From IMG/VR virus record IMGVR_UViG_3300046490_000164, positions 70,170 through 134,169 of that record: DNA of 64,000 nucleotides; one strand, written 5' to 3'. The DNA is from a virus. Of the stretch, positions 17,308 through 33,488 are shown piece by piece (position 1 is the first letter of the stretch; each line of letters starts with the position of its first letter). Both the position numbers and the translations under genes were made by a program. The notes beneath the pieces are model-generated. The model worked only from the letters and a program-made list of their open reading frames with translations. It was not told the origin of the DNA and did no database searches.

Positions 17308-17321
17308 GCTGAGGGGTAAAA

Positions 17322-17345
17322 GAGGGCCCGCTCGGGCCCTCTCCT
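17322..17345. terminator. Bidirectional intrinsic terminator (10-bp perfect stem AGAGGGCCCG/CGGGCCCTCT)
   Basis: Read directly from the sequence. Lies between the convergent genes 15262-17307 (+) and 17344-17553 (-). Confidence 0.6.
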
Positions 17346-17972: not shown

Positions 17973-17978
17973 CGGGGC

Positions 17979-18428
17979 TCACCCATCCTCTGCCCCGTCC
18001 GAGGAGACGACTTTCAAGTTGGCTCTCCGCAGTATGAGGGAAAGGAACGACGACCCCTTACCGCAGCTCGTACATCCCTCGAGCGATGGACGGTCGGGAT
18101 CGAAGTCGGGATCATCTTCGGTGAGGTCGTGCGGGCGGCCGGAGTGGTAGAAACCCGGCAACACCCGCGACACATCCTTGTTCTCTCGTTCGTATCGGTA
18201 GGAAGCGTCCAGGCATTCCCAGCACTCCCACCCGACACTCCAGCCCTTTGCGGCCTCGGCCTCGACCCACTGGATCAAGAACCTGCATCGCCCGCAGTCG
18301 AAGGCGATGCCACAGAGTCCGCGCCGGCCGGAAGAGAACACTGGCCGACCTCTCTCGTCGAACGTACCGCCGTTGGAGGCGAAGAGAAGAGGGCAGAACG
18401 CAACTCGTGAGGGCTGGTCGTGGCTCAT
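17979..18428 (-). CDS. Hypothetical Cys-rich protein
   Basis: Start trimmed to ATG 18428-18426 (MSHDQPSRVAF...). Contains CGIAFDCGRC and CWEC. Confidence 0.3.
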   Translation of the reverse strand: MSHDQPSRVAFCPLLFASNGGTFDERGRPVFSSGRRGLCGIAFDCGRCRFLIQWVEAEAAKGWSVGWECWECLDASYRYERENKDVSRVLPGFYHSGRPHDLTEDDPDFDPDRPSLEGCTSCGKGSSFLSLILRRANLKVVSSDGAEDG

Positions 18429-18519
18429 GGCTAGTTGAACAGCACGGAGTACCACATCGCCGACAGCTTGGAAGCGATGTACTGCACGATGCGCGCTGCG
18501 AACGCCCACAGGAACAGTT

Positions 18520-18708
18520 TCACGGCTTGGAGTCCTCGTTGGCTGGCTGCTGCGTGTCTTCCACCGGCTCAGACGGAGACGGCTCCTGGCTCGGAACACC
18601 CATGTTGCCGAGCAAAGCCTCTTTCCGCTCCTGCTCCCACATCTCGGACTGCGACTGCTGCTGCTTCTGCACGTCCACCTCCTGAGGAATGAAGCGCATC
18701 TTCGACAT
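18520..18708 (-). CDS. Hypothetical small acidic protein
   Basis: Start trimmed to ATG 18708-18706 (MSKMRFIPQEVDVQ...). 62 aa. Confidence 0.3.
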   Translation of the reverse strand: MSKMRFIPQEVDVQKQQQSQSEMWEQERKEALLGNMGVPSQEPSPSEPVEDTQQPANEDSKP

Positions 18709-18711
18709 TCT

Positions 18712-18719
18712 CTTATGCC
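18712..18719 (+). promoter_or_regulatory. Conserved CTTATGCC motif, copy 2 (130 nt upstream of the RNAP gene)
   Basis: tctCTTATGCCtc sits in the loop of an ATTCT...AGAAT hairpin and is followed by TTTCTCTTT. Confidence 0.35.
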
Positions 18720-18848
18720 TCAGAATCGTTTCTCTTTGAGGGCAGTTAGCTGTAGTCTGAAAAGGCTGTCGGGGGCGAAGACCGCTAAGGCGCTGCGGTA
18801 GCCCCACCAGCACATAGTCGTTGAGCTCCTTGCGCTAGGTGAGCACGC

Positions 18849-21800
18849 ATGGCTGATGCCAGCAATCTTACGCCCGACATCGCATTCGACACGTTGAAGT
18901 CGAACACGCTCGAGGCGATCAAGTCCTACTTCCCCTTCGACGGCAAGCACCGCCAGATCCATGTGGCGAACCTGCACGTTGACGACAAGCTGGACACCGA
19001 TGATGTGACCTCACAGGCGGAGGCCCGGGACAAGGAGGGCACCTGGGGCGTCCCCATCAAGGCCGACATCAAGCTGGTAGACAAGCTCACCGGCAAGACC
19101 ATAGACGAGAAGAAGGGCGCCATCATCGCCCGCCTTCCCAAGCTCACCAACCGCTACGGCTTCATCGTCGGAGGGAACGAGTACCAGGTCGACCACCTCT
19201 TCCGCCTGAAGAGCGGCATCTACGCCCGGGTCCAGGAGAACGGCGACCTGGAGAGCGAGTTCAACCTGGCCCACAGCCCGACGGGCCGCAACTTCTCCAT
19301 CAAGCTCGACGGCCAGAACAAGCGGTTCACCGTGAAGTACGGCGACGCCCACATCCCGCTCTACCCCCTGATGAAGAGCATGGGGGTCTCCGACGAACAG
19401 ATGGAGCAGCAGTGGGGCCGAGAAATCTTCTCCGCCAACCACCCCAAGACGGACGCTAAGTTCCGTGCCTCGCTCGCCTCCTTCGTGAAGCGCACGAGCG
19501 ACGCCGAGAACGTCGACACCCACAGCACCGACGAGCTGCACAAGCAGGTCCGCAACTTCTTCGACCAGACCTCCCTCCGCCCGGACACCACCAAGCTCAC
19601 ACTCGGCAAGGCCTACACCTCGGTGAACGGGGAGGTCCTGTCCCGCGCCGCCCAGAAGCTGCTGGGCGTGTCCCGCGGCACCGAGAAGCCTGACGATCGA
19701 GACAGCCTGGCCTTCAAGGAGGTCGTGTCCGTCGAGGACTTCGTCCCGGAGAAGATCCAGCGGAGCGCGAAGACCATCCGCTCCCGTCTTCGCCAGACGG
19801 TGGACAAGAAGAGCAGCGTAGGGGAGATCCTCTCCTCCGATCTCTTCAACCGCCCCATCCACGAGTTCTTCACGAAGGGTGGCTCGGTCGCAGAGCGCAG
19901 CGACCAAACCAACCCGATCCAGATGCTCTCGGCCCACCGCAAGACGACCCTCATGTCGAGGGAGTTCGGCGGCATCAAGAGCGACATGAGCATCACCCCC
20001 GACATGCGCGGGGTGAACCAGAGCCACATCGGGTTCCTCGACCCGATGCACACCCCGGAGTCCGAGAAGACCGGCATCACGCTCCACCTCTCGGCCAACG
20101 CGCGCAAGAACGGGCGCGACCTCGAGATCCCGGTCTACGACCTCGAGACCAAGAAGCCGGTGTGGGTGAAGGCCCCTGACTTCCACAACTCCATGGCCAT
20201 CCTGCCGGACCAGGTGACCTGGAAGAACGGCGTACCGACGCCCATCGCCAAGGAAGTGAAGGTGAAGGCGGTCGGTGGGGAGATCCTCGTCAAGCCGGCC
20301 GACTCCGCTCGCTACGTCATGCCGAGCGCCAAGGGGATGTGGAACTACAGCTCCAACCTCATCCCCTTCCTGCCCACCGACAACGGCAACCGGCTCATGA
20401 TGGCCGACAAGCAGATGGAGCAGGCCATCTCGCTCAAGCACCGGGAGGCCCCGCTCGTCCAGTCCAAGACGGACCACCCTACGGATCCGAGCCACACCTT
20501 CGAGAAGTTCATTGGTCACTTCGTGGCCACGAAGAGCCCGGTGTCTGGGACGATGGTGGGGTCGAAGGGCGATGCCCTCATCATCAAGGACGACGCCGGC
20601 AAGAAGCACGAGGTCCACCTCTACAACCACTTCGCGCTGAACGACCCCAAGGGGATGATGCACTCCGAGCCCCTCGTGAAGCCGGGGGACAAGGTCCGTA
20701 AGGGCCAGGTGGTGGCCGACAACAACTACACCAAGGACGGTGCGCTCGCTGTCGGCACCAACCTCCAGATCGGCTACCTGCCATACAAGGGCTACAACTT
20801 CGAGGATGGCATCGTCATCTCGGAGAGCGCGGCCCAGAAGCTCACCTCCGAGCACCTCTACAAGAAGGCGCTCGAGATCGATCCGGACCACGACCACATC
20901 TCCACAGCCAAGTTCAAGGCGTACTCCGTGGTGAAGGCGTCGCAGATGACGCCGGAGCAGTGGGGGCTCCTGGACGAGAACGGCGTGGTCAAGCCAGGGT
21001 CGAAGATCCTGCCCGGCCAGGTGCTCATCGCGGCCGTAGGCAAGAACGAGACGCGCCGCCTATCCCCTCTCGCCGGGTACGGCAAGCGAGCCTTCCAGCC
21101 CTTCAAGGACAAGTCCCTGACCTGGGACGAGGACCACGTCGGCATCGTGACCAAGGTCATCCCCATCTCGGGCGGCCGCGGCTACCGCGTCCACGTGAAG
21201 ACGGAGGAGCCGGCGGTGGTGGGCGACAAGCTCGCCGGACGCCACGGCAACAAGGGCATCATCACGCAGATCCTGCCCGACCACGAGATGCCCTTCACGA
21301 AGGACGGAGAAGAGCGCAAGCCTCTCCAGGTCCTGCTCAACCCGTCAGGCATCCCGACCCGACTCAACCCGGGCCAGATGCTCGAGACCCTTGCCGGGAA
21401 GATCGCCCAGAAGATTGGCAAGCCGTACGTCGTCAACAACTTCGGCAGCGCCGTGTCGGACTACCGCACTGGCATCGAGCACGAGCTGAAGGCGCACGGC
21501 ATCCCTGACGAGGAGATGGTCTTCGATCCCAAGGACACCCGTCGTCCTCTTGGGTCAGTGGCCGTCGGCCCCCAGTACATCCTGAAGCTGAAGCACCAGG
21601 TCGAGAAGAAGCTCACAGCTCGTGGCGGTGGGACGAGCGTGGAGGGCAAGCGCCTCTCCTCGGACATCGACCACCAACCTCCGAAGGGCTCTGGCGTCCC
21701 TGGCGGCGGGCAGGGCTTCGGCGCCCTGGAGATGTACGGCCTCCTGGGGCACAACGCTCGCCACAACATCCGGGAGATGGCGACGTACAAGTCCGATGCC

Positions 21801-24800
21801 CAGGACATCCCCTTCTGGAACATGATCCAGGAAGGGCACGAGCCGCCTCCGCCGAAGGCACCGTTCAGCTACCACAAGTTCACCGCGCTCCTGAATGGGC
21901 TTGGCGTCAACGTGACGAAGGAAGGCACCAACGTCCGCCTCATGCCGATGACGAGCAAGGAAGTCCTCCAGCTCGCAGGCAATGGGCGTAACGAGATCAC
22001 CGCCGGTGCCAAGACCATCCGCTCGAAGGACCTGAAGCCGGAGCCCGGTGGCCTCTTCGACCCCCACATCACTGGTGGCATCGACGGCAAGCAGTGGTCC
22101 TTCCTGCGGCTGGCCGAGCCTGTCCCCAACCCCATCTTCGTAGGCGCAGGCAACAAGCCCGGCCCAGTCCCAGTCCTCCTCGGCCTCAAGATGAAGGAGC
22201 TCGACGAGGTCATGCACGGGAAGCGTGAGCTCCACAGCAAGACGGGAGGGGCAGCGATCGAGGAGGCCCTGAAGAAGGTGGACGTCGACAGCTCCATCGA
22301 GGCGCTCCGCAAGGACCTCCCCACGCTCACCGGTTCCGCCCTCGACCGCTCCAACAAGAAGCTGAAGTACCTCCAGGCGCTGAAGAGCGTCGGCATGAAG
22401 CCAAGCGACGCCTATATCCTCAAGTACCTGCCGGTCCTCCCACCCACCTTCCGCCCGGCCACGACGACGCCGACTGGGGACGTGAACTACGCCCCACTGA
22501 ACGGCCTCTACAAGAACATCTCCCTCATCAACGACGAGCTGAAGAACTTCGACTACAAGACCTTCAGCGCCGAGCACGCCCACCCGCTCCGCACCCAGCT
22601 CTGGGACGCCATGAAGGCGCTCCAGTCGGTCGGAGACTACCGCCCGGTCTACGACACTGACTCGAGCGGAAACCGTGCCCTGAAGGGCATCCTCGACACC
22701 ATCGGTGGTGGTGAGGGCGAGCAGCCGAAGGAGGGCTACTTCCAGGCGAAGCTCGTGAAGCGTCGCCAGAACCTCTCCATCCGCTCCACCGTCGTCCCGG
22801 AGCCGGCTCTCGGCATCGACCAGGTCGGCATCCCCAAGGGTGCGGCCATGGAGATGTACAAGCCCTTCGTGGTGGCCCAGCTCCACAAGTGGGGCCTCGA
22901 CCCGCTCTCCGCCCAGAAGGAGATGCAGAAGAACACCCCTCTCTCCCACAAGGCACTGCAAGCCGTGGTGGACGAGCGCCCCATTCTCCTGAAGCGCGAC
23001 CCCGTGCTGCACAAGTTCGGCATCATGGCGTTCAAGCCGAAGCTCGTCGAGGGCAAGGCCATCCAGATCCACCCGCTCGTGTGCGGCGGCTTCAACGCCG
23101 ACTTCGACGGTGACACCATGGCCGGCACCATCCCGATGTCGCGTGAGGCGGTGGAGGAGGCGAAGAAGCTGCTGCCCTCCAACAACCTCTTCAGCCCCAC
23201 GACCGGTGGCGTCATGTACGTCCCTGGTCACGAGTCCCTGCTCGGTCTTCACCTCCTCTCGCAGTGGGGCAAGGACACGGGCAAGACGTTCAAGAGCGTT
23301 GGCGACCTCGAGAAGGCTGTTGAGAGGGATGGCCACGTCGGCATGAACGACGTGGTGCATGTCGGTGGGTTCAAGAAGCCCACGACGCTCGGCCGCATCA
23401 TGATCGAGGCTCGCCTACCTCGAGGCTTCGCAGGACGTGAGCAGCTCCTCCACGATCCGAAGTACGAGATCACCAAGAAGACGCTCAAGGGTGATATCGC
23501 TACCAAGGTCGCCAAGGAGCACACCAAGGACTTCTCGAAGACCATCGACGCACTCAAGGATCTGGGCAACGATCAGTCCTTCCAGTACGGCTTCTCGGTC
23601 GGCCTGAAGGACTTCAAGACGCTCCCGGAGCGCGACAAGATCGTGGCCGACGCCCAGGCCAAGGTGAAGAAGATCAAGGCCCAGAACATGGGGGAGGATC
23701 ACGAGCGCGACGACATCATCAAGGTGTGGACGGATGCCACCACCAAGATCGATGAGGCGCAGAAGAACCTGGTCGGCAAGGGCAACCGCTTGGCCCGCAT
23801 GGTCCTCGCCGGCGCTCGAGGGGAGCCAGAGCAGCTACGACAGATGCTGGCAGCCCCGATCCTCGTCGAGGACTCGTCTGGCCGCACGCTTGTCACGCCA
23901 CTCACCAGGTCCTACGCAGAGGGCTTCGACGTCGGTGACTTCTGGATCGCCCAGCATGGCGCTCGCAAGGGCATCATCCAGAAGAACCGCGGCACCGCAG
24001 AGCCTGGTGCCATCTCGAAGGACATCATCAACGCCTCCATGTCGACTCTCATCGTCGACCAGGACTGCAAGACGCAGCAGGGTGTCCTCCTCGGCCTGAA
24101 CGACAAGGACATCCACGACCGCTTCCTCGCCACGGCCTACAAGACGAAGGACGGTCACAGCATCCCCGCCGGCACCCTCATCGACCCGGGTGTCCTCTCG
24201 CGCCTCAAGAACTCCAAGCACGAGCGGGTTCTGGTTCGCAGCCCGATGAAGTGTGCCCACGGGTCCGGCATCTGTGCGAAGTGCTACGGCCTCAACGAGG
24301 CCGGAGTGCTGCACGACGTCGGCACCAACATCGGCGTGCTCGCCAGCCAGGCCATGGGTGAGCCGTCCACGCAGCTCTCCATGAAGGCCTTCCACTCCGG
24401 TGGCGTGGCACAGGGGGCCGGCGCGAAGTCCCTTGATGCCATCACCAGGTTCCGCAACCTGCTCGAGATGCCGAAGAAGCTGAAGGACGAGGCCATCCTC
24501 GCACTGGAGACTGGACGCATCACCGACATCAAGAAGGACGCAGTCGGTGGTCACGACGTCTTCATCAACGGCGTGCGTCACTGGGTACCGACCCACCTCA
24601 TCGACCCGAACGTGAAGGTCGGGAACGAGGTCCGCAAGGGACAGATGCTGTCTGGTGGCTACGTCAACCCGCACCGGATGCTCGAGGCCACCAAGGACAT
24701 CCACGCGGTGCAGAACTTCCTGACCGACGAGCTCCACGGCGGGCTGTTCGGGGACTTCGGGGTGCGCAAGAGGAACGTCGAGGTGGCTGTACGCTCCATG

Positions 24801-25136
24801 ACGAACCTCACCAAGGTCACCGACCCGGGCTCGAGCGACTGGGCCCACGGCGACATCGTTCCTCGGTCCATCGTGGAAGAGCACAACCGCTCGAGCCATG
24901 CAGGGCACAAGCCTGTGTTGCACCAGCCCATCCTCCGTGGCACTGGCGAGATCCCGCTCGTCGGAACGCAGGACTGGATGCAGCGGCTGAACTATCAGCG
25001 CCTGCACGATACCGTCCAGCAGGCTGCCTCGATGGGCCATCGCTCCGACATCCACAGCGCCAACCCCATCCCGGCGATGGCGCACGGTGCCGAGTTCGGT
25101 CGCCCGTCCCCTGGTAAGCCCAAGCACGTGTACTAG
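18849..25136 (+). CDS. Single-polypeptide multisubunit-type DNA-dependent RNA polymerase: beta-like N-terminal half fused to beta-prime-like C-terminal half
   Basis: 2095 aa. Beta motifs: EFFTKGG...NPIQMLSAHRKTTL...GFLDPMHTPESEKTGITLHL (compare CPIETPEGPNIGLI); GYNFEDGIVISE; LAGRHGNKGIITQILPDHEMPF...LNPSGIPTRLNPGQMLETLAGK; C-terminal GQGFGALEMYGLLGHNA...KSD. Beta-prime motifs: KPEPGGLFDPHITG; YLPVLPPTFRP; absolute NADFDGD at about 23094-23114; C-terminal AHGSGICAKCYG. Confidence 0.85.
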   Translation: MADASNLTPDIAFDTLKSNTLEAIKSYFPFDGKHRQIHVANLHVDDKLDTDDVTSQAEARDKEGTWGVPIKADIKLVDKLTGKTIDEKKGAIIARLPKLTNRYGFIVGGNEYQVDHLFRLKSGIYARVQENGDLESEFNLAHSPTGRNFSIKLDGQNKRFTVKYGDAHIPLYPLMKSMGVSDEQMEQQWGREIFSANHPKTDAKFRASLASFVKRTSDAENVDTHSTDELHKQVRNFFDQTSLRPDTTKLTLGKAYTSVNGEVLSRAAQKLLGVSRGTEKPDDRDSLAFKEVVSVEDFVPEKIQRSAKTIRSRLRQTVDKKSSVGEILSSDLFNRPIHEFFTKGGSVAERSDQTNPIQMLSAHRKTTLMSREFGGIKSDMSITPDMRGVNQSHIGFLDPMHTPESEKTGITLHLSANARKNGRDLEIPVYDLETKKPVWVKAPDFHNSMAILPDQVTWKNGVPTPIAKEVKVKAVGGEILVKPADSARYVMPSAKGMWNYSSNLIPFLPTDNGNRLMMADKQMEQAISLKHREAPLVQSKTDHPTDPSHTFEKFIGHFVATKSPVSGTMVGSKGDALIIKDDAGKKHEVHLYNHFALNDPKGMMHSEPLVKPGDKVRKGQVVADNNYTKDGALAVGTNLQIGYLPYKGYNFEDGIVISESAAQKLTSEHLYKKALEIDPDHDHISTAKFKAYSVVKASQMTPEQWGLLDENGVVKPGSKILPGQVLIAAVGKNETRRLSPLAGYGKRAFQPFKDKSLTWDEDHVGIVTKVIPISGGRGYRVHVKTEEPAVVGDKLAGRHGNKGIITQILPDHEMPFTKDGEERKPLQVLLNPSGIPTRLNPGQMLETLAGKIAQKIGKPYVVNNFGSAVSDYRTGIEHELKAHGIPDEEMVFDPKDTRRPLGSVAVGPQYILKLKHQVEKKLTARGGGTSVEGKRLSSDIDHQPPKGSGVPGGGQGFGALEMYGLLGHNARHNIREMATYKSDAQDIPFWNMIQEGHEPPPPKAPFSYHKFTALLNGLGVNVTKEGTNVRLMPMTSKEVLQLAGNGRNEITAGAKTIRSKDLKPEPGGLFDPHITGGIDGKQWSFLRLAEPVPNPIFVGAGNKPGPVPVLLGLKMKELDEVMHGKRELHSKTGGAAIEEALKKVDVDSSIEALRKDLPTLTGSALDRSNKKLKYLQALKSVGMKPSDAYILKYLPVLPPTFRPATTTPTGDVNYAPLNGLYKNISLINDELKNFDYKTFSAEHAHPLRTQLWDAMKALQSVGDYRPVYDTDSSGNRALKGILDTIGGGEGEQPKEGYFQAKLVKRRQNLSIRSTVVPEPALGIDQVGIPKGAAMEMYKPFVVAQLHKWGLDPLSAQKEMQKNTPLSHKALQAVVDERPILLKRDPVLHKFGIMAFKPKLVEGKAIQIHPLVCGGFNADFDGDTMAGTIPMSREAVEEAKKLLPSNNLFSPTTGGVMYVPGHESLLGLHLLSQWGKDTGKTFKSVGDLEKAVERDGHVGMNDVVHVGGFKKPTTLGRIMIEARLPRGFAGREQLLHDPKYEITKKTLKGDIATKVAKEHTKDFSKTIDALKDLGNDQSFQYGFSVGLKDFKTLPERDKIVADAQAKVKKIKAQNMGEDHERDDIIKVWTDATTKIDEAQKNLVGKGNRLARMVLAGARGEPEQLRQMLAAPILVEDSSGRTLVTPLTRSYAEGFDVGDFWIAQHGARKGIIQKNRGTAEPGAISKDIINASMSTLIVDQDCKTQQGVLLGLNDKDIHDRFLATAYKTKDGHSIPAGTLIDPGVLSRLKNSKHERVLVRSPMKCAHGSGICAKCYGLNEAGVLHDVGTNIGVLASQAMGEPSTQLSMKAFHSGGVAQGAGAKSLDAITRFRNLLEMPKKLKDEAILALETGRITDIKKDAVGGHDVFINGVRHWVPTHLIDPNVKVGNEVRKGQMLSGGYVNPHRMLEATKDIHAVQNFLTDELHGGLFGDFGVRKRNVEVAVRSMTNLTKVTDPGSSDWAHGDIVPRSIVEEHNRSSHAGHKPVLHQPILRGTGEIPLVGTQDWMQRLNYQRLHDTVQQAASMGHRSDIHSANPIPAMAHGAEFGRPSPGKPKHVY

Positions 25137-25139
25137 CCC

Positions 25140-26225
25140 ATGTCCCTCATCAAGAACGGCTTCGGCCCAGTCGTCATCCAGAGGGCTCGCGTCCTCGATG
25201 TGGACATCCGTGCCTACACCGTCTCGGTCGTCACCGAGTACACGACAAAGCCGCTCTCCGGCATCTCCTTCGCCACCCCGTACCAGCACTTCGCCAACGG
25301 GGAGGGCATCTACTTCATGCCGGAGGTCGGCTCTGTCTGTTGGCTCTGCGAGCCCTCCGACGGCAGCATGCCCTTCGTCCTGGCGTGGGCGCCGGCGCAG
25401 GATGAGGGGGATTTCAGGGCGCTGAAGGTGTCCCTCAACCCCGGAGACATCTACCTCGGCACTCGAGACGAGAACGCCATCATCCTTCGCCGCGGCGGCA
25501 TCCTCCAGATCTCGTCGACTCCGCTGTGCCAGCGCATCTTCATGCCCATCAACAACACCATCAAGGACTTCTGCGAGAACTACGGGATGTACTCGTTGGC
25601 CGGGGACATGGAGTGGGCAGTCACCATCCTCCCTGAGTCACAGGACGGGAAGCGCCCAGCCCATTTCCTCCTGAAGTCGAAGGAGTTTGCGAACGACCCC
25701 AACCCGATAGCTGAGCTTGAAATCGGTTCCCATGGAGAGGGCGCGGATACTATCCTCTCCATGATCGTTCGTGAGTCTGGTGCGGCTGGGGCGAACACAC
25801 AGATCGCTCTCTCTTTCGACAAGACAGGCAACGTGCAGTGGGATGTGGAGAAGGACGTGCAGTGGGACGTAGCAGGTGAGTTCAACCTGAACGTAGCCAA
25901 GGACATGAAGCTGCACTCCGACACGAACGCCACACTCGAAGGCATGGAGCAAGCCACAGTGTCTGGAGGGCTGGTCAACGTGGAGTCGATCTCGGGAGCC
26001 ATCAACCTTCAAGCAGCCACCGGCGTCGCTGTCACCTGCGGCAGCGGTGGCCCGGCACTGAAGGTAGGCCTCGGCACCAGCCCCACCCTCCTGGCCACCC
26101 CAGCGGTCCTTGCCTGGCTCAGCGCACACGTACACACCAGCGCAGCGCCCGGTGTCGTCACCTCTCCCCCAGTCGTACCCTTCCCTGCGGCACTCGCCCA
26201 GGCGAAGGACATCATGTCGTCCTAG
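25140..26225 (+). CDS. Virion protein, possibly a baseplate spike/hub (gpV/VgrG-like OB-fold followed by a beta-rich C-terminus)
   Basis: 361 aa. N-terminal OB-like segment GIYFMPEVGSVCWLCEPSDGSMPFVLAWAP. The C-terminal repetitive beta-strand region is rich in Gly/Ser/Thr/Val. The family call is uncertain. Confidence 0.45.
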   Translation: MSLIKNGFGPVVIQRARVLDVDIRAYTVSVVTEYTTKPLSGISFATPYQHFANGEGIYFMPEVGSVCWLCEPSDGSMPFVLAWAPAQDEGDFRALKVSLNPGDIYLGTRDENAIILRRGGILQISSTPLCQRIFMPINNTIKDFCENYGMYSLAGDMEWAVTILPESQDGKRPAHFLLKSKEFANDPNPIAELEIGSHGEGADTILSMIVRESGAAGANTQIALSFDKTGNVQWDVEKDVQWDVAGEFNLNVAKDMKLHSDTNATLEGMEQATVSGGLVNVESISGAINLQAATGVAVTCGSGGPALKVGLGTSPTLLATPAVLAWLSAHVHTSAAPGVVTSPPVVPFPAALAQAKDIMSS

Positions 26226-28396
26226 TGAGGAGCCACATGTCCCTGTACCTCGACAGCCTTCCCGAGCGCGATGACGAGTTCAAGAAGGAAGCCGCCTACG
26301 CCGCCAGGCTGGGGGAGGAAGTGGAGAACTGGCCGCAGGAGCTCTCGAGCGAGCTCTTGAAGCAGCTCCCGTTCCTCTCCGACTACGAGCTCAACGTCAA
26401 CCTCGACCGCGTCGACACGCAGCGTGGCTTCGCCTTCGGCTACGCCGACCTGGCGAACAAGACCGAGCGCCCAGAGGCAGAGCACGACGAGCATGGGATG
26501 CCGCACATCCGCGTCCCCATCGTGGTGCAGGAGAAGTCGGTCAAGCCCTTCTCGATGTACCTGGACGGCGATGCCGTGCTGCCCCTCACCGAGGAGCGCG
26601 TGCGGGAGGCCCTCTTCAACCCCGGCACCTTCGACATCTCCCAGACCCTGCCCCGGGACCCCAGCCTGGTCGAGCCGCTCATGCCCCCGACACGTACGGG
26701 TGCTGGCTATGGCGGCGAGTACAAGATGGCCTCTGCGCGCCCAGACCTGCTGCGCGCCATCGCCCCTACCATCTCCGAGAAGGACGCCTCCAGCTTCATC
26801 CAGAAGCTCTCCTCCGATGCCACTCTCCGAGTCGGCTTCAAGCGCGCCGGCGTGGTAGACGACCTCATCGAGGTCTTCGACAAGACCAAGAGGGCCAGCG
26901 CCGAAGAGCGCCTTGCCTTCGTGGCCGAGAGCATTCAGCCCACCGTCGTCACCCTCCACAAGCTGCCGGGCGGAGACTTCCTGGTGAAGTCGGCCAGCGT
27001 GAACGCTCTCAACCCCCAGGATATGCAGGGGCAGGCTGTGCCGGCCGAGGAGACCGGCATCGATCCCGCCGCGGCGCAGTCCATGGTGCCAGGGCAGACC
27101 GTCACCAGCGTCACCGAGCCCATCGAGCTCGAGGAGCCCTTCGAGTCGAAGCTGAAGCCGGTGGAGGAGTTCGGGCAGTACACCGTCGTCGACACCATGG
27201 GCAACAAGCTCACCGGCTGGGTCTTCCCTGTGACCCTGGCTTGGGACGGCGCCTTCTCGAAGCAGCCCATCGCCGTCTTCTCGAACGGCTCTGCCTACGC
27301 CATGCAGGACAGCATCGTGGGCGAGCTCATCGGCAAGAGCACGGCGCTCCCGAAGGAAGACCAGCCGGTCGGTGAGGGCGTCTTCTTCACCACCCTGGGC
27401 GCCAACGCCATCTGCACCGCCCCCATCACCGTGCGCTCCACCATGGCGGGCCCAGACGGCTTGCCGAAGATCCTGGCCTTCGATGCCTTCGGCCAGCAGC
27501 TCTCCGTCTCCTTCGTGGACGGGCTGTCCTCACCGCAGCGCGTCAGCGACATGGAGTACGCCTTCCCCAAGACTTGGAACTTCATGCGCCTGAACGGGCA
27601 GACCCAGCTCCAGGGCGGCGGCCAGGACATGAGCGGCGAAGAGGGTATGGAGGAGGGCATGGGCGGCATGTCGGACGCCCCCAAGTCCGCGAAGCCCAAG
27701 GCGAAGGGTGGGGACAAGAAGTCGGACAAGAAGCCGGCCAAGAAGGACGACAAGGGCGGCGAGAAGAAGGAGAAGTCCGAGAAGCCCACCGTCCAGGTCA
27801 ACGTCGGAGAGCAGGTCAAGAAGGAGAAGACCTCCGCGGTCCTCTTCTTCAACGGCGGCTACAACATCCAGGGTGGGTGCGGCCTCGACAAGCTGGCGGC
27901 TGAGTACCGCTACGACATGAGCCCGGTGGATGCCGAGTTCATGCTGGGCCTCCTGGGCGTGGATGGCATCACCGCCAAGCAGAAGGTGGCGGAGTGCCGG
28001 CGCAAGGGGTCAGTCAAGCTGGCAGGCCTCAAGACCATCACCCTCCTGGGAGAGCGCTACAGCGAGTCGGTGAAGACGGCCAGCGCCATCCTCGCCAAGC
28101 TCCCCAACCTGCGCCGTGACCTCACCAAGGAGGCCGCGGTCCTGGAGGACAAGGACACCGTCAACAACCTCCTCGCCCTCAACTTCATCAACCCGGAGAA
28201 CCTGAGCGAGTTCGTCAGCTACATCCCAGAGCTCGAGGAGACTAGCGAGCGCCTGGCCGAGATGCTGCTGTACAACTACCTCGGCATGAATGAGTTGCCC
28301 GAGGGTGCCATCGCTCGTTCCATGAAGGGGCTGGAAGACGTCCTCGTCGGTCTGAAGAACCTGTCTGAGACAGGGGGCGCATCCGAGGAGGAGTGA
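26225..28396 (+). CDS. Hypothetical large virion-block protein with a Lys/Glu/Asp-rich low-complexity insert
   Basis: 723 aa. Insert KSAKPKAKGGDKKSDKKPAKKDDKGGEKKEKSEKP. Confidence 0.5.
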   Translation: MRSHMSLYLDSLPERDDEFKKEAAYAARLGEEVENWPQELSSELLKQLPFLSDYELNVNLDRVDTQRGFAFGYADLANKTERPEAEHDEHGMPHIRVPIVVQEKSVKPFSMYLDGDAVLPLTEERVREALFNPGTFDISQTLPRDPSLVEPLMPPTRTGAGYGGEYKMASARPDLLRAIAPTISEKDASSFIQKLSSDATLRVGFKRAGVVDDLIEVFDKTKRASAEERLAFVAESIQPTVVTLHKLPGGDFLVKSASVNALNPQDMQGQAVPAEETGIDPAAAQSMVPGQTVTSVTEPIELEEPFESKLKPVEEFGQYTVVDTMGNKLTGWVFPVTLAWDGAFSKQPIAVFSNGSAYAMQDSIVGELIGKSTALPKEDQPVGEGVFFTTLGANAICTAPITVRSTMAGPDGLPKILAFDAFGQQLSVSFVDGLSSPQRVSDMEYAFPKTWNFMRLNGQTQLQGGGQDMSGEEGMEEGMGGMSDAPKSAKPKAKGGDKKSDKKPAKKDDKGGEKKEKSEKPTVQVNVGEQVKKEKTSAVLFFNGGYNIQGGCGLDKLAAEYRYDMSPVDAEFMLGLLGVDGITAKQKVAECRRKGSVKLAGLKTITLLGERYSESVKTASAILAKLPNLRRDLTKEAAVLEDKDTVNNLLALNFINPENLSEFVSYIPELEETSERLAEMLLYNYLGMNELPEGAIARSMKGLEDVLVGLKNLSETGGASEEE

Positions 28397-28803
28397 TGGT
28401 ATCACTCCCCCAGGAGCTGGTGGTCGGTCATCCAGTCATCGACCACCAGCACCGCGAGATCTACCGACGCACCGACGAGCTTCTCGATTCCTCGTTTCTC
28501 GAGAGGGACCTCGAGAAGCTCCCTGCCTTTGCCGACTACCTGATGGACTATGTGGATGTCCACTTCAGGGACGAAGAGATGTTCATGGGGAGGCTTGACT
28601 TCCCCGGCCTGGTCCCCCACCAACACGCCCATGCCGCCTTTCGGCTCAAGGTGGTCCGTCTGCGATCTACCCTTGATTCCGAGGGCCTAGGTGCGGCAGC
28701 CTATGCCGATGTGTGCCGGGTGGTGACGGACTGGTTCGAAGGGCACATCAACACGCTGGATCGTGAGTTCGCCAAGTTCGTGCGGGCACACCACGGGAAG
28801 TGA
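28393..28803 (+). CDS. Hemerythrin-like metal-binding protein
   Basis: 136 aa. His ligand pattern VIDHQHREIYRRTDELL...HFRDEEMFM...HQHAHAAF...HINTLDREF matches the hemerythrin/HHE cation-binding signature (H..H...E...H...H...H..D). Confidence 0.6.
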   Translation: MMVSLPQELVVGHPVIDHQHREIYRRTDELLDSSFLERDLEKLPAFADYLMDYVDVHFRDEEMFMGRLDFPGLVPHQHAHAAFRLKVVRLRSTLDSEGLGAAAYADVCRVVTDWFEGHINTLDREFAKFVRAHHGK

Positions 28804-28812
28804 GCACTACGG

Positions 28813-29682
28813 ATGGCCAAGCATCCCGCAGAGAACCTGATCCGCTTCTTCATGGTTCGTGACCCTGCCGTCACGGACGGCTCCATCCAGAAGATGCTCG
28901 AGGATTGGGGGTTCCTCACCGTCGATCCCACCTACCTCCCTCTCCTGCGTCAGGAGATCCCAGCTCCTCCGGCCGGCTTCAACCCAGGAGACAAGGCTCA
29001 CCGCGCCAGCGTCACCTACCTGCGCGACCTCAAGCTCTACGAGTTCTTCCACCCGAACGACGCAGCTGAGGACGCTTGGAGGGTGCTCTCGATCCCCGAC
29101 CAGCGTATGGCGGCCGAGCAGATCCTCCTGGCCCGACTCGACCTCGCCGTCACCGCCAAGAAGATCAACGCCAAGCGCGGCTGGGACTTCACCGAGAAGA
29201 TGCTGAAGATGTACCAGCACTTCTTCTGGAACGTGCCGTCCCTGACCTTCGATGAGTGGGGCCGGTACATGTTCAACCGGACCTCGCTCTACGAGCACTA
29301 CATGGGGCTGCTCATCGCCTCCCCGATGCTCGCCTTCTACCACCTGCGGCTCGACCAGACGGTGGAGTCGAAGCGCATGATCCAGCGCACGCAGGAGATC
29401 GCCTACTTCACGATGGAAGAGGTGGCGCAGAAGCCGGGCGTCCACATCGACAAGGTGAAGAGCTTGTCGATGCTCTCGAAGACCATCAACGAGTGCCACC
29501 AGTCCTTGTCCACCTCGGACATGGCGCTGAAGGACGTCCTCCGCCAGTTCGAACACTGGCGCATGGAGCACCCGCAGATCACACCTCCGGCGCTGAACCT
29601 ACTGGCGCCTGCCGGGAACCACTCGGGCTCCGGGCAAGACAAGAAGGAAGCGGAAGTCATCGAGCTCCATCCCGAGCCATGA
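28813..29682 (+). CDS. Hypothetical protein
   Basis: 289-aa ORF with a clean start 10 nt after the upstream stop. Confidence 0.5.
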   Translation: MAKHPAENLIRFFMVRDPAVTDGSIQKMLEDWGFLTVDPTYLPLLRQEIPAPPAGFNPGDKAHRASVTYLRDLKLYEFFHPNDAAEDAWRVLSIPDQRMAAEQILLARLDLAVTAKKINAKRGWDFTEKMLKMYQHFFWNVPSLTFDEWGRYMFNRTSLYEHYMGLLIASPMLAFYHLRLDQTVESKRMIQRTQEIAYFTMEEVAQKPGVHIDKVKSLSMLSKTINECHQSLSTSDMALKDVLRQFEHWRMEHPQITPPALNLLAPAGNHSGSGQDKKEAEVIELHPEP

Positions 29683-30023
29683 TGCTCAACAACATCATCC
29701 CACCGCGACCAGTTCGTGGGATGGGCTACTGGGTGTGGATCCCCGCTGAGGCTACCTTCTCCACCCAAGACCCGTGGATCCAATACTACGGTACGGGGGA
29801 CCTACCGACCAACGTATCTGTCTTCTTGGAGAGCGTAACGAAGGAGAAGGCAGCGAAGATCAGGTACGGGAAGCTGTTCCAGAAGAACATGCATCACATC
29901 GAGAAGAGTCGGGAGTACCGTAGCCAGCAGGCCTGCATGGCCTTGAAGTCCCGAGCGGTCTCGGCCAAGCTGTACGGCAAGCACCGCACCACACGAAACG
30001 CCCTATCGTCGGGTCGATGGTAG
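29679..30023 (+). CDS. Hypothetical small protein
   Basis: ATG 29679 overlapping the upstream stop (ATGATG). Begins MMLNNIIPPRPVRGMGYWVWIP. 114 aa. Confidence 0.4.
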   Translation: MMLNNIIPPRPVRGMGYWVWIPAEATFSTQDPWIQYYGTGDLPTNVSVFLESVTKEKAAKIRYGKLFQKNMHHIEKSREYRSQQACMALKSRAVSAKLYGKHRTTRNALSSGRW

Positions 30024-30044
30024 AACTCTGAGAGGGACCGCACT

Positions 30045-30521
30045 ATGCCCACCTGGCAGGAGCAAGAGACCAACAGCCGCAAGCCCATCCCCGTCACGGC
30101 CGAGAAGGCCGCGGACCTCGACAAGGCCAAGGAGGAGGGCCTTCCCACCGTCATCAAGCAAGCGGCCAAGGGAGAGCTTCCCGTCCAGCCTGTGCAGCTC
30201 CAGCCTGTGCGCAGCCCAGGGATCTACGAGGGGGAGTTCGGAGTCAAGGACGACGACCTCATCTTCCACTTCTGGCCCTACGGCTACCACGACGCGGACC
30301 GCAAGGGGCTCGCCACGCCTCGCTTCAAGAAGGACTTCGAGTCGACGCTCAAGGCGGTGGCAGCTCGTGAGCTGCGCAACCGTGCCGTCGTGGAGCACGA
30401 CCAGGACGTGGGCGCCTACTTCGTACGCGGGACAGGGTGGGGGACGAGCCAGTTCCACCACGACATCGCCGTCAAGTTCTGCCAGGCACTACACACCGCG
30501 CTCGGCGGCACTGAGGGCTAA
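30045..30521 (+). CDS. Hypothetical protein
   Basis: 158-aa ORF; last plus-strand gene before the minus-strand island. Confidence 0.5.
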   Translation: MPTWQEQETNSRKPIPVTAEKAADLDKAKEEGLPTVIKQAAKGELPVQPVQLQPVRSPGIYEGEFGVKDDDLIFHFWPYGYHDADRKGLATPRFKKDFESTLKAVAARELRNRAVVEHDQDVGAYFVRGTGWGTSQFHHDIAVKFCQALHTALGGTEG

Positions 30522-30552: not shown

Positions 30553-31119
30553 CTACTTCTTGTCCGGCGAACCTGGCGGCAGCAGGTTCTGCTTGAAGCC
30601 CGGTGCGCGCAGCCGCTTCAGGACGTCAGCAGCGTTGTGCTGCACCCACTGCTTGTAGAGCCCAGCCTCGCCGGTCGAGGGGATGTTGGCCGGGTTGATG
30701 CTGGCGAGCGTCTGCTCGAAGTTCTCCGCCGCCCTGTCTAGGGTCTTCGCCTTCTTGGTGAGGTCGTACTTCGCCCGGTCAAGGTCATCGAACGTGGCAC
30801 GGATGCCGACCGATGGCAGCGAGACCAGACCGCGGAGGTACTTCGTGTGGAGGATCTTCCTGGCCGGCGTCACCGTCCTCTTGATCCGGTCCACGTCCTC
30901 CGAGTCGAAGCGCGGCATGTGCTTGAAGCCGTTCACCATCTTGGCGACGACGTTGAAGGCCTGGAACTCCCCAGGGGTGTTCTGGGCCGCCCAGTCCAGG
31001 AAGTGCGCCACGCGATGGGACATCGACAGCTCCAGCGGCGGGGAATAGATGGTCCCGTTCACCGCAGCCTTGGTGCTACGAGCGGTCTTGCTCACTCGGC
31101 CCTCCTGTTGGATCTCCAT
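30553..31119 (-). CDS. Hypothetical protein
   Basis: 188-aa ORF; last gene of the minus-strand island 33488 to 30553. Confidence 0.45.
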   Translation of the reverse strand: MEIQQEGRVSKTARSTKAAVNGTIYSPPLELSMSHRVAHFLDWAAQNTPGEFQAFNVVAKMVNGFKHMPRFDSEDVDRIKRTVTPARKILHTKYLRGLVSLPSVGIRATFDDLDRAKYDLTKKAKTLDRAAENFEQTLASINPANIPSTGEAGLYKQWVQHNAADVLKRLRAPGFKQNLLPPGSPDKK

Positions 31120-32017
31120 CCACGACCCCCGCTGCGATGATCTGTTCGTTGTACTTCTTCACCAGCGCCCAGGCCGAGCACACAGCTTCGTACTTCGGCC
31201 GCTTCGTCTCGTCTCCGTCGTGCCTATCCGGGTGATACTCGCGCGCCATGGCGTGGTAGCGAGTCCGGGCTATGGCGATATCCACAGGATGCCCGTCTCG
31301 AAGGGGAGGGTCGATGTGCAGCGCACGGCAGGCCTCCACTACCTCTGCTCTGCTCATGTTGCTGCGCCTGGCAAGCGTCTCGTCCACGGACGCTGCCTCC
31401 TTCATGTTACGTTTCAGCTCCCCCATCATCACCTTCAGGGTGACGACGAAGTCTCTAGTCACCTTGTCGATCACCACAGGGGGCGCGTGTCGTAGGCGTC
31501 CCTTGACGTACCCGACTACCTGCGCTCGGATCTGGGCCGCAAAGGCAGTGTCCGGGTCCTCGGTGGAGGCCAGAACCCTTGGGACCTTCCGCTTCACGCC
31601 CTTGCCCTTGGGCGCCGGCTTTCCTACCCTGACCGGCACACCACTGATCCAACGAAGGAACGGAAGGCGGTCGTAGTCGGCCAGGGCCTTCTTCATCGCC
31701 TCATCCAGAGGGATGCCCTTGTCCACTGCGATCCTCTTCGCATCCCCAACGATCTTGGCAGCGGAGTTGACCAACAACTGCCCAGCATCGACCCGTTGCC
31801 ACAGCGGGTCGATCATGTCCCCCAACCCGATGAGGGTCGCACGAACCTGGATGTGGAAGAGGTTGTCTCCTAGGAACTTGCAGAGCCACTCTCTCTGCTG
31901 TCCGTCAGACACCCCCGACTTCTCTCTTTCACGCTTGAGCGCTCGCTCAATGAGAGCCTTCTTCTTCTGCGTGTCGGCCCAACCCCAAGCTTCTTTGAGA
32001 TCATCGATGGTGCTCAT
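31076..32017 (-). CDS. J-domain (DnaJ-like) protein, J domain at the C-terminus
   Basis: 313 aa. C-terminal YHAMAREYHPDRHDGDETKRPKYEAV contains the HPD tripeptide in a J-domain context. Confidence 0.6.
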   Translation of the reverse strand: MSTIDDLKEAWGWADTQKKKALIERALKREREKSGVSDGQQREWLCKFLGDNLFHIQVRATLIGLGDMIDPLWQRVDAGQLLVNSAAKIVGDAKRIAVDKGIPLDEAMKKALADYDRLPFLRWISGVPVRVGKPAPKGKGVKRKVPRVLASTEDPDTAFAAQIRAQVVGYVKGRLRHAPPVVIDKVTRDFVVTLKVMMGELKRNMKEAASVDETLARRSNMSRAEVVEACRALHIDPPLRDGHPVDIAIARTRYHAMAREYHPDRHDGDETKRPKYEAVCSAWALVKKYNEQIIAAGVVDGDPTGGPSEQDRS

Positions 32018-32598: not shown

Positions 32599-32874
32599 TT
32601 ACTGCTTGATGAGCGCCTGTTCCATGTCCTGCTGCGCCGCGAAGAGTCTTCTCACGTCGCGCTGTATGGACTCGCTCGTATGCATGAGAGTAGCAACCTG
32701 GCAGCGCACGGCGTACAGCATCCGCACGATCGGCCAGGGCATGAGACCTCGGTAGATGTGCTTCGCGCACTCCTCACACACAGCCGCAGGAGCCTCCGCA
32801 GAGGTCCACTCGGTCATGCTCACAATACAGTCCGTGCCGCAAGACAGGCACGGTTGCACTACCTGATCCGTCAT
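32599..32874 (-). CDS. Small zinc-ribbon protein
   Basis: ATG 32874-32872 forms an ATGA overlap with the RNase HII stop. MTDQVVQPCLSCGTDC...CEECAKH. Only the C-terminal 91 aa of the 181-aa track ORF are treated as real. Confidence 0.4.
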   Translation of the reverse strand: MTDQVVQPCLSCGTDCIVSMTEWTSAEAPAAVCEECAKHIYRGLMPWPIVRMLYAVRCQVATLMHTSESIQRDVRRLFAAQQDMEQALIKQ

Positions 32875-33488
32875 GAGATCCTCAGTAGTACCTTGCGGCA
32901 GTAACGCTGCCTGTGCAGGTACCTGGACTTGTCGATGGGGTCCACGAGAACTCCTAGCTTCTTGATGCCCTCCTCGTGGGTAAAGGTTCCGTAGCCGGCG
33001 TTGCTCTCCCACCCGTACCCGGGGAACTGTTTGGCGTAGTCCGCCATCATAGTGTCCCGAAGGTACTTGGCGATGATGCTGGCCGCGGAGACCTGTGCGT
33101 AGTTCAGATCTGCCTTGGGCTCGACTTGCTGCCTTCCCTTCCATGTCTGCACGCGGTGGTCACCGTCCACGATGAGCAACCCAGGTGCTGTCTTCAAGTC
33201 ACCCAGGGCGCGGTCGTAAGAAAGCTGGAGGGCTCTGCCGGCTCCGAACGTGTCGATCTCCCACGGCCATGCGTGGCCTATGCCGACGTCGTGCGCCAGG
33301 GACACCAACGGCATGTAGAGGGAGCTGCGAAGCTTCTCCGTCGTCTTCTTCGAGTCCGTCACACCTGGAGGCATTCGCGTGAGCGCCTCGTTCGAGAAGA
33401 CGGCTACAACAGAAATCACCGGACCAGCCCAGGCCCCGTACCCTACTTCATCCAAGCCACCTACGAGATCCTCGGGACGTACGGTCAT
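32871..33488 (-). CDS. rnhB: Ribonuclease HII
   Basis: 205 aa. GLDEVGYGAWAGPVISVVAV (compare GIDEAGRGPLAGPVV), DSKKTTEKLR, LIVDGDHR and SAASIIAK motifs. Confidence 0.8.
   Translation of the reverse strand: MTVRPEDLVGGLDEVGYGAWAGPVISVVAVFSNEALTRMPPGVTDSKKTTEKLRSSLYMPLVSLAHDVGIGHAWPWEIDTFGAGRALQLSYDRALGDLKTAPGLLIVDGDHRVQTWKGRQQVEPKADLNYAQVSAASIIAKYLRDTMMADYAKQFPGYGWESNAGYGTFTHEEGIKKLGVLVDPIDKSRYLHRQRYCRKVLLRIS

What the first reader, a model, noticed from the sequence alone, without database searches (positions are those of the whole stretch)
28393..28803. Hemerythrin-like protein encoded inside the virion gene block
The His/Glu/Asp ligand spacing (HQH...H..EE...HQH.H...H...D) fits the hemerythrin/HHE diiron fold. 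This is unusual among structural genes and may reflect O2 or NO sensing, or iron handling, during infection. The gene is translationally coupled to the upstream 723-aa protein.
Basis: partly seen in the sequence, partly recalled or inferred. Interest (0 to 1): 0.5.

Follow-up and report, generated by a model that had tools for sequence, protein, structure and literature searches.

The report
Hemerythrin gene in a phage operon
An uncultured large phage carries an intact gene for hemerythrin, a two-iron oxygen-binding protein normally found in bacteria and some invertebrates. The same gene type sits at the same spot in at least three related phages, which suggests these phages alter oxygen handling in the cells they infect.

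Summary
Window 28396-28803 (+) encodes a 135-aa single-domain hemerythrin: PF01814 at 49.3 bits (cut-off 25.3) and TIGR02481 at 79.3 bits (cut-off 51.75). All seven diiron ligands of O2-binding hemerythrins are present. An AlphaFold model (pLDDT 90) is a four-helix bundle that matches DcrH-Hr at TM 0.82. Its ATG overlaps the stop of the upstream 723-aa gene (TGATG) behind a GAGGAGGAG Shine-Dalgarno site, so translational coupling is plausible.

The phrase "virion gene block" is not established. The neighbours are conserved proteins of unknown function next to a fused beta-beta' RNA polymerase. The recognisable terminase, capsid and sheath genes lie 5-25 kb downstream.

The new result is that the p723|p289 junction is a variable slot across a widespread uncultured phage clade. 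In 14 close lineages it holds a hemerythrin in four, small basic proteins in four, an endonuclease VII in one, and nothing in five. The four phage hemerythrins are only 33-59% identical to each other, while flanking proteins are 60-82% identical, yet all keep the seven ligands.

No genuine phage hemerythrin was found in INPHARED, BFVD or the literature searched. The most likely role is an O2-binding accessory gene. Its physiological function and the host are unknown.

The parts
28396..28803 (+). Hemerythrin CDS, 135 aa from ATG 28396 (alternative in-frame GTG at 28393), stop TGA 28801-28803
   Evidence: ORF list. PF01814 at 49.3 bits vs cut-off 25.3. TIGR02481 at 79.3 bits vs 51.75. AF2 model pLDDT 90.2. 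Foldseek PDB top 14 hits are all hemerythrins.
28385..28393 (+). Shine-Dalgarno-like GAGGAGGAG, 2-10 nt upstream of the ATG. It also encodes the C-terminal EEE of p723.
   Evidence: Read directly from the sequence.
28394..28398 (+). TGATG: the stop of the 723-aa gene overlaps the hemerythrin start by one base
   Evidence: The same tight junctions occur in L072 (TGATG), L078 (TAATG) and L079 (TAG then GTG).
28450..28452 (+). Codon for ligand His19
   Evidence: Aligns with McHr H22. Invariant in 79/79 relatives and in the 4 phage hemerythrins.
28561..28575 (+). HFRDE: ligands His56 and Glu60 (HxxxE)
28618..28632 (+). HQHAH: ligands His75 and His79 (HxxxH)
   Evidence: H75 is His in 70/79 relatives.
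28744..28761 (+). HINTLD: ligands His117 and Asp122 (HxxxxD)
26225..28396 (+). p723, a conserved upstream gene of unknown function that forms the left border of the variable slot
   Evidence: 66-85% identical in relatives L001-L004 and L072. No family or structure match.
28813..29682 (+). p289, a conserved downstream gene of unknown function that forms the right border of the slot, 9 nt after the hemerythrin stop
   Evidence: 60-77% identical in relatives. The family has at least 176 clusters.

Best explanation
The ORF encodes a functional single-domain bacteriohemerythrin: a four-helix bundle holding an oxo-bridged diiron site that binds O2 reversibly. It is an accessory (auxiliary metabolic or moron-type) gene of an uncultured ~134-kb tailed phage (a tail-sheath homologue suggests a contractile tail) that encodes its own RNA polymerase. 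It sits in a variable slot between two conserved phage genes, p723 and p289. It has no room for its own promoter, so it is probably transcribed with that operon and translated by coupling to p723.

The inferred role is to bind or buffer O2 in the infected cell. It could keep high-affinity respiration supplied under micro-oxic conditions, as P. aeruginosa Mhr and methanotroph bacteriohemerythrins do, and so sustain the energy supply for phage production.

Shown here: family membership, an intact ligand set, the fold, the operon geometry, and recurrence in the same slot in four phage lineages. Inferred: iron and O2 binding. Speculative: the physiological benefit.
For: Family and fold:
- PF01814 E 8.6e-13, and TIGR02481 above its cut-off.
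- The best PDB sequence hits are McHr and DcrH-Hr.
- The seven ligands align and are invariant or nearly so among 79 relatives.
- The AF2 model has pLDDT 90.2 and pTM 0.84 with four helices. Foldseek gives DcrH-Hr at TM 0.82, rmsd 2.5 A, and the top 14 hits are all hemerythrins.
- The 5 His + Glu + Asp set is the pattern of O2-binding 'true' hemerythrins. YtfE, the human iron sensor and mycobacterial hemerythrin-like proteins use different sets (PMC6993866).

Accessory status:
- Synteny RNAP-p361-p723-[slot]-p289 is conserved.
- Slot content varies: hemerythrin in the window, L072/L073, L078 and L079; small basic proteins in L004, L074, L075 and L076; endonuclease VII in L001/L003; empty in L002, L077, L085, L086 and L091, and in all distant relatives.

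Selection for function:
- The four phage hemerythrins are 33-59% identical, yet all seven ligands are invariant.

Coupling:
- Stop/start overlaps or spacers of 0-9 nt occur in all four lineages.
- There is no promoter- or terminator-like site at either end of the gene.

Functional precedent:
- Mhr binds O2 with Kd about 1 uM and supports microoxic fitness together with high-affinity oxidases (bioRxiv 10.1101/802934).
Against: - No iron, O2-binding, expression or host data exist.
- The host and its oxygen physiology are unknown.
- The protein scores just below NCBI's curated bacteriohemerythrin subfamily cut-off (78.4 vs 84 bits), and its nearest relatives are only 35-40% identical.
- Many clade members lack the gene, so it is dispensable for the phage cycle.
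- No O2-dependent phage enzyme that it might serve was found in the window.
- Single-domain hemerythrins also act as oxidative-stress protectants (C. jejuni HerA), so the direction of the benefit (supplying O2 or removing it) is open.
Confidence: 0.45

Rival explanations
1. The protein acts as an O2 or peroxide scavenger. It removes O2 or reactive oxygen species in a microaerophilic or anaerobic host to protect oxygen-sensitive Fe-S enzymes of the host or phage during infection, rather than delivering O2.
For: C. jejuni hemerythrin HerA helps protect Fe-S enzymes, and its mutant grows poorly in air. Many named profile relatives come from anaerobes such as Geobacteraceae, Desulfuromonadaceae, Acetobacterium and Clostridiaceae. 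The protein has the same intact diiron site.
Against: Those named relatives were retrieved by a family profile and are not the closest relatives of the phage protein. The host is unknown. No oxygen-sensitive phage enzyme was identified in the window.
Confidence: 0.25
2. The protein is an O2 (or NO/redox) sensor subunit. It reports oxygen status to phage partner proteins such as p723, p289 or the phage RNA polymerase, and so tunes the timing of the infection cycle.
For: Hemerythrin domains serve as O2 sensors in DcrH and in two-component and chemotaxis proteins. DcrH-Hr is the best structural match. Tight coupling to p723 and p289 in all four lineages would favour co-assembly.
Against: There is no output domain. 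The p723-p289 pair works without it in most clade members. The same slot also takes unrelated cargo, including an endonuclease VII and small basic proteins, which argues for a generic insertion site rather than a functional partnership.
Confidence: 0.1
3. The gene is a neutral passenger: a host gene picked up at a recombination-prone junction with no benefit to the phage, or on its way to being lost.
For: The slot is variable and holds a homing-type endonuclease in one lineage. The hemerythrin has lower GC3 (0.763) and weaker codon adaptation (0.529) than its flanks (0.914/0.778 and 0.889/0.733). The gene is absent from most relatives.
Against: Four diverged lineages keep an intact, full-length ORF with all seven ligands and the conserved pocket residues F57, W113 and I118, despite only 33-59% identity. 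Junctions are compact in all four. Identical copies were recovered in three further samples.
Confidence: 0.1
4. The protein is virion-associated cargo, packaged into or onto the particle by analogy with hemerythrin cargo of encapsulins, as the reader's 'virion block' framing would suggest.
For: Hemerythrins are known cargo of HK97-fold encapsulin shells (PMC8346489 and 10.1101/085266, listed). The gene lies in a long operon with a weak portal-like hit and a weak baseplate-hub-like hit in p361.
Against: The neighbours are not demonstrably structural. The recognised head and tail module is elsewhere. The C-termini of the four phage hemerythrins are short, basic and not conserved, and I saw no encapsulin-type targeting peptide (motif from my own knowledge). 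The gene is absent in most relatives.
Confidence: 0.05

Closest known systems
Single-domain bacteriohemerythrins: Methylococcus capsulatus McHr (PDB 4XPX) and P. aeruginosa Mhr
   Same: Similar length (~130-137 aa) and a four-helix bundle. The H-HxxxE-HxxxH-HxxxxD ligand set is identical, as are the conserved pocket residues F57, W113 and I118. There is no extra domain.
   Different: Only about 25% identical to McHr and 40% or less to any protein in 1.84 billion representatives. Phe114 replaces the usual Leu (L in 71/79 relatives); this is the residue mutated in the McHr L114F/Y/A structures. The gene is phage-encoded and lies in a phage operon rather than under a host O2-responsive regulon.
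DcrH-Hr, the hemerythrin domain of the Desulfovibrio vulgaris chemoreceptor (PDB 2AVK, 3WAQ)
   Same: It is the best structural match, with TM 0.77-0.82 and rmsd 2.5-2.9 A over 132-133 columns. [quoted passage not shown]
   Different: DcrH-Hr is a sensor domain fused to a methyl-accepting chemotaxis protein. The phage protein stands alone.
Phage auxiliary metabolic genes and morons in general
   Same: A family otherwise known from cellular organisms, set between conserved phage genes. It varies in presence among close relatives and is expressed from the phage operon.
   Different: I found no earlier report of a hemerythrin in this role. The only annotated 'phage' hemerythrin in INPHARED lies on a mislabelled bacterial contig. 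BFVD has no structural match.
YtfE/RIC and other hemerythrin-like proteins (human FBXL5, mycobacterial HLP)
   Same: All match the same Pfam clan and share the four-helix diiron scaffold.
   Different: Those proteins use 4 His plus 2-3 Glu, or a Tyr, and have extra domains or a fifth helix. The phage protein has the 5 His/Glu/Asp set and four helices.

Membership tests
Hemerythrin/HHE domain (Pfam PF01814, NCBIfam TIGR02481) | Profile score above the curated cut-off over the full domain | tested here: met
   PF01814 at 49.3 bits vs 25.3, residues 15-127 on profile positions 5-124 of 127. TIGR02481 at 79.3 bits vs 51.75.
Hemerythrin/HHE domain | Four-helix up-down bundle | tested here: met
   AF2 with a 79-sequence alignment gives pLDDT 90.2 and helices at 13-31, 39-66, 72-96 and 100-133. 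Foldseek PDB gives DcrH-Hr at TM 0.82 and McHr at 0.69-0.72, and the top 14 hits are all hemerythrins.
O2-binding ('true') hemerythrin / bacteriohemerythrin | Seven ligands, 5 His + 1 Glu + 1 Asp, in the pattern H...HxxxE...HxxxH...HxxxxD | tested here: met
   H19, H56, E60, H75, H79, H117 and D122 align with the McHr ligands. They are conserved in 70-79 of 79 relatives. The pattern definition is from PMC6993866.
O2-binding ('true') hemerythrin / bacteriohemerythrin | Score above NCBI's curated bacteriohemerythrin subfamily model NF033749 | tested here: not met
   78.4 bits against a cut-off of 84. This is a near miss that reflects divergence. The match is full-length, covering 6-129 of 129 profile positions.
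O2-binding ('true') hemerythrin / bacteriohemerythrin | Binds two Fe and binds O2 reversibly (spectroscopy) | not testable with these tools
   This needs purified protein.
Phage auxiliary/accessory gene (AMG or moron) | Lies on a genuine phage genome, flanked by conserved phage genes, and is variably present among relatives | tested here: met
   The window carries phage hallmark genes: TerL, MCP, sheath, PolA and primase. The slot census covers 14 close and about 8 distant lineages.
Phage auxiliary/accessory gene (AMG or moron) | Alters host metabolism during infection | not testable with these tools
   There is no cultured phage-host pair.
Virion structural module | Neighbours are recognisable structural proteins, or the protein is detected in virions | tested here: inconclusive
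   p361 matches Phage_base_V only weakly (E 0.011, below the cut-off). p723 and p289 have no matches. The defined head and tail genes start at 33839.
YtfE/RIC-type hemerythrin-like proteins (NO or Fe-S repair) | A ligand set of 4 His + 2 Glu with an additional domain or cofactor | tested here: not met
   The protein has 5 His/Glu/Asp and a single domain.

The most novel reading that the evidence does not exclude
Hemerythrin is a recurrently selected phage accessory function. In a widespread clade of RNA-polymerase-encoding soil or sediment phages, one fixed slot has been filled repeatedly, possibly independently, with highly divergent hemerythrins. That would imply phages manipulate intracellular O2 availability, or sense it to time their cycle. 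This would be a class of oxygen-management auxiliary gene not yet described for viruses.
Probability: 0.3. Interest if true: 0.6.

Novelty: new member of a known kind. Interest (0 to 1): 0.4.

Why it matters
Phage auxiliary genes are known for photosynthesis, nucleotide, sulfur, nitrogen and phosphate metabolism. I found no report of a reversible O2-binding protein among them. A hemerythrin that recurs at one locus in several diverged phages, with its metal site preserved, points to oxygen supply or oxygen stress as a limiting factor for phage replication in micro-oxic habitats. It also offers a small, easily expressed protein on which to test this. The protein family itself and its chemistry are well known, so the advance is ecological and contextual rather than mechanistic.

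Tried and rejected
- Host inference failed. There are no tRNAs. The MVP-like protein has no relative in GTDB genomes. The RNase HII is 40% identical or less to many phyla. The closest hemerythrin clusters carry no organism names. No paper mentions the sample ids.
- I tried to decide between common ancestry and cassette replacement for the window and L072 hemerythrins. DNA identity drops from about 0.8-0.9 in the flanks to 0.33-0.63 in the gene. However, synonymous sites are already saturated in the flanks (same-codon fraction 0.57-0.74 against 0.67 expected by chance), so that test has no power. NJ bootstraps are weak: window and L072 are sisters in 2/100, all four phage proteins fall in a group of 10 taxa or fewer in 21/100, and L072+L078+L079 group in 63/100. 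The first NJ run timed out.
- Broad-alignment scans of IMG/VR either failed or found nothing of this type. A motif scan found unrelated viral contigs with hemerythrin-like ORFs.
- The INPHARED 'Acinetobacter phage MD-2021a McHr' was rejected as a phage hemerythrin. Its neighbours are argB, fur, pilT and sbcC, so it is a bacterial contig.
- Defence or anti-defence role: no PADLOC hit.
- Encapsulin-like cargo: the phage hemerythrin C-termini show no conserved tail.
- Antisense ORFs 28402-28632 and 28010-28405 were treated as GC-rich noise, because the sense frame has the family match.
- The single-sequence AF2 model (pLDDT 65.5) was replaced by the alignment-based model.
Full report
**1. The observation**

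Window 28393-28803 (+) is an open reading frame of 136 codons from GTG 28393, or 135 codons from ATG 28396. The ATG is the better start for three reasons:
- GAGGAGGAG (28385-28393) lies 2-10 nt upstream of it.
- It overlaps the TGA stop (28394-28396) of the upstream 723-aa ORF as TGATG.
- Public gene calls use it (P0001, 135 aa, identical protein on contigs from three further samples).

**2. Is it a hemerythrin?**

Yes. The evidence is as follows.
- Pfam PF01814 scores 49.3 bits (cut-off 25.3, E 8.6e-13) over residues 15-127.
- NCBIfam TIGR02481 scores 79.3 bits (cut-off 51.75). The narrower bacteriohemerythrin model NF033749 scores 78.4 bits, just under its cut-off of 84.
- The best solved-structure sequence matches are Methylococcus bacteriohemerythrin (4xpw, E 2.5e-7) and DcrH-Hr (2avk, E 1.9e-6).
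- In that alignment H19, H56, E60, H75, H79, H117 and D122 (135-aa numbering) fall on McHr H22, H58, E62, H77, H81, H117 and D122.
- In a 79-sequence alignment these columns are His/Glu/Asp in 79/79 sequences, except H75, which is His in 70/79. F57, W113 and Y52 are also invariant.
- According to PMC6993866, 5 His + Glu + Asp is the ligation of the O2-binding 'true' hemerythrins and of the DcrH sensor. YtfE, the human iron sensor and mycobacterial hemerythrin-like proteins use other sets.
- An AlphaFold2 model built on that alignment has pLDDT 90.2 and pTM 0.84, with four helices.
- Foldseek against the PDB returns only hemerythrins in the first 14 places. DcrH-Hr gives TM 0.77-0.82 (rmsd 2.5-2.9 A) and McHr gives TM 0.69-0.72.

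An exhaustive HMMER search of 1.84 billion cluster representatives finds 8441 relatives at E<=1e-3. None except the protein itself is above 40% identity, so the sequence is a divergent member of the family. One detail stands out. Position 114 is Phe where 71 of 79 relatives have Leu. This is the position mutated in the McHr L114F/Y/A crystal structures.

**3. What the window is**

The window is part of a ~134-kb contig from an uncultured tailed phage of 61-66% GC.

| Feature | Coordinates |
|---|---|
| Family A DNA polymerase | 715-2733 (-) |
| Primase | 4140-5324 (-) |
| DnaB-type helicase | 5239-6663 (-) |
| UDG | 8453-9307 (-) |
| Helicase (ResIII/DEAD) | 9759-11234 (-) |
| Fused beta-beta' RNA polymerase, one 2095-aa ORF | 18849-25136 |
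| gpA-type large terminase | 33839-35683 |
| Protease-like gene | 39030-40736 |
| Major head protein | 44584-45714 |
| Tail sheath homologue, 1104 aa | 51175-54489 |

There is no nucleotide match in INPHARED.

The hemerythrin lies in a + strand gene string (11929-30521) in the order RNAP, p361, p723, hemerythrin, p289, p114, p158. There is no promoter- or terminator-like site at either end of the gene. The immediate neighbours have no significant match in Pfam, PHROGs, NCBIfam, PDB sequences or INPHARED. The only hints are weak: p361 against a baseplate-hub OB domain (E 0.011) and the 681-aa ORF at 15262 against portal PHROGs (E 2.6e-5). 'Virion gene block' is therefore unproven. The recognisable packaging, head and tail module starts 5 kb downstream, beyond a divergent minus-strand cassette that includes an RNase HII.

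**4. The slot**

The order RNAP-p361-p723-p289 is conserved in relatives. The p289 family alone has at least 176 clusters at 90% identity, on contigs up to 210 kb. What lies between p723 and p289 varies.

| Slot content | Lineages |
|---|---|
| Hemerythrin | window; L072/L073 (the closest relative: RNAP 80%, p723 79-85%, p289 76-77% identity); L078; L079 |
| One or two small basic proteins (98-123 aa) with an N-terminal F.DE.EKIA motif | L004/L017, L074, L075, L076 |
| Endonuclease VII homologue (PF02945, E 3e-26) | L001/L003 |
| Empty, with p723 stop and p289 start adjacent | L002, L077, L085, L086, L091-L096 |
| Empty in distant relatives (p289 19-27% identical) | L018-L025, L088-L090 |

The hemerythrin carriers are not a single branch by p289. 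L078 is closer to hemerythrin-less L074 (78%) than to the window phage (62%).

**5. How the phage hemerythrins relate**

- They are 33-59% identical to each other, while their flanking proteins are 60-82% identical. Between the window and L072, DNA identity falls from about 0.8-0.9 in the flanks to 0.33-0.63 within the gene, and the change occurs at the gene borders.
- All seven ligands, and 28 columns in total, are invariant among the four. They also share Phe/Leu-Pro where the family has a nearly invariant Trp near the N-terminus.
- L072's protein is the best single-domain hit of the window protein in the exhaustive search. By BLAST, however, each has slightly closer bacterial relatives. The window protein's nearest relative, P0011, sits among bacterial genes.
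- Neighbour-joining bootstraps group L072, L078 and L079 in 63/100 replicates. They place the window protein with them only weakly.
- A synonymous-site test had no power because the flanks are already saturated.

I therefore cannot say whether there was one old acquisition followed by fast divergence and losses, or repeated gain and cassette exchange. Under either history, intact diiron sites and compact junctions in four lineages (stop/start overlaps or spacers of 0-9 nt) argue that the gene is kept by selection.

**6. Mechanism**

Shown:
- It is a full-length hemerythrin with the O2-binding ligand set and fold.
- Its operon position has no room for a promoter of its own.
- It has a Shine-Dalgarno site and a stop/start overlap.

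Inferred:
- It binds two irons and O2.
- It is made together with p723 and p289.

Most likely role (about 0.45): it buffers or delivers O2 in the infected cell so that respiration continues under micro-oxic conditions. P. aeruginosa Mhr does this (Kd about 1 uM, epistatic with high-affinity oxidases), as do methanotroph bacteriohemerythrins.

Rivals:
- Protection of Fe-S enzymes from O2 or peroxide, as proposed for C. jejuni HerA. About 0.25.
- An O2 sensor acting on phage partner proteins. About 0.1.
- A neutral passenger. About 0.1.
- Virion cargo. About 0.05.

The host is unknown. One carrier contig is named 'AH_forest', which hints at soil.

**7. Novelty**

The protein family and its chemistry are well known. 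The context appears to be new.
- tblastn of INPHARED (50,697 records) gives three weak hits. Two of them (the same strain) were checked via H1 and lie on a mislabelled bacterial contig with neighbours argB, fur and pilT. The third (MT837110.1, 7.7 kb, unannotated, 23% identity, E 6e-3) was not examined.
- The BFVD viral structure library has no significant match (best E 0.74).
- PHROGs has no hit.
- Full-text searches pairing hemerythrin with bacteriophage, auxiliary metabolic genes, AMGs or jumbo phage found no report of a phage hemerythrin.
- A motif scan of IMG/VR did find a few other viral contigs with hemerythrin-like ORFs. One is in an unrelated, genuine 41%-GC phage (L013), next to a homing endonuclease, and its last ligand motif is altered.

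I class this as a new member of a known kind and give it moderate interest. The recurrence at one locus is the part worth following up.

Noticed in passing
window 18849-25136 (+): A single 2095-aa ORF fuses a beta-like half (Rpb2_6, E 1e-56) and a beta'-like half (Rpb1 domains, NADFDGD motif) of a multisubunit RNA polymerase. It is 65-80% identical in clade relatives. The nearest cultured phages are Vibrio phages D181/D148/D69, at about 31% identity over 97% of its length. It may belong to, or lie near, the 'mReC' phage lineage of PMC7481178.
   Followed up: partly
window 57843-60569 (-), with 60813-62693 (-) and 62812-63726 (-): A 908-aa Major Vault Protein homologue (MVP_shoulder E 8e-23, Vault_3 E 1e-10) lies next to a 626-aa protein of unknown function and a MoxR-like AAA_5 ATPase. 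Phage MVPs have been reported once, in a preprint (10.1101/2023.11.10.566534). No relative was found in GTDB genomes by the pattern scan.
   Followed up: partly
L004 9306-9650; L074 2782-3153 and 3192-3488; L075 3157-3501; L076 3127-3498: A family of small, very basic proteins (98-123 aa) with a conserved N-terminal F.DE.EKIA motif occupies the same p723|p289 slot in other clade members. It has no Pfam, NCBIfam or PADLOC match.
   Followed up: partly
L003 10204-10638 (also L001): An endonuclease VII homologue (PF02945, E 3e-26) occupies the same slot. This suggests the junction is a target for homing-type mobile genes.
   Followed up: yes
L013 7997-8434 (IMGVR_UViG_3300045971_000210): An unrelated 41%-GC phage, from the same IMG sample as relative L003, has a 146-aa hemerythrin-like ORF (PF01814, E 5.3e-8). 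It lies three genes after TerL and directly before a homing endonuclease. The first five ligands are kept, but the final HxxxxD reads HMAVEI.
   Followed up: partly
INPHARED CAKLQH020000030.1 / CAKLQF020000028.1 (locus L016): Records named 'Acinetobacter phage MD-2021a' carry ordinary bacterial chromosome genes (argB, fur, pilT, sbcC, rpoB/rpoC). They appear to be mislabelled bacterial contigs, so their 'McHr' is not a phage gene.
   Followed up: yes
window 28735-28737 (Phe114 of the hemerythrin): Phe occupies the position of McHr Leu114, the residue mutated in PDB 4xpw, 4xpy and 4xq1. Leu is found in 71/79 relatives and Phe in 4/79. L078 also has Phe here, while L072 and L079 have Leu.
   Followed up: partly
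window 51175-54489 (+): The tail sheath homologue is unusually long at 1104 aa. Only the C-terminal ~200 residues match sheath profiles.
   Followed up: no
window 54533-55183 (+), 32871-33488 (-), 8453-9307 (-), 31076-32017 (-): Other genes noted: an HNH_3 endonuclease just after the sheath gene, an RNase HII, a UDG-superfamily protein, and a 313-aa protein with a weak C-terminal J-domain match (E 1.4e-4, below the cut-off). The RNase HII and the DnaJ-like gene are syntenic in L072.
   Followed up: no
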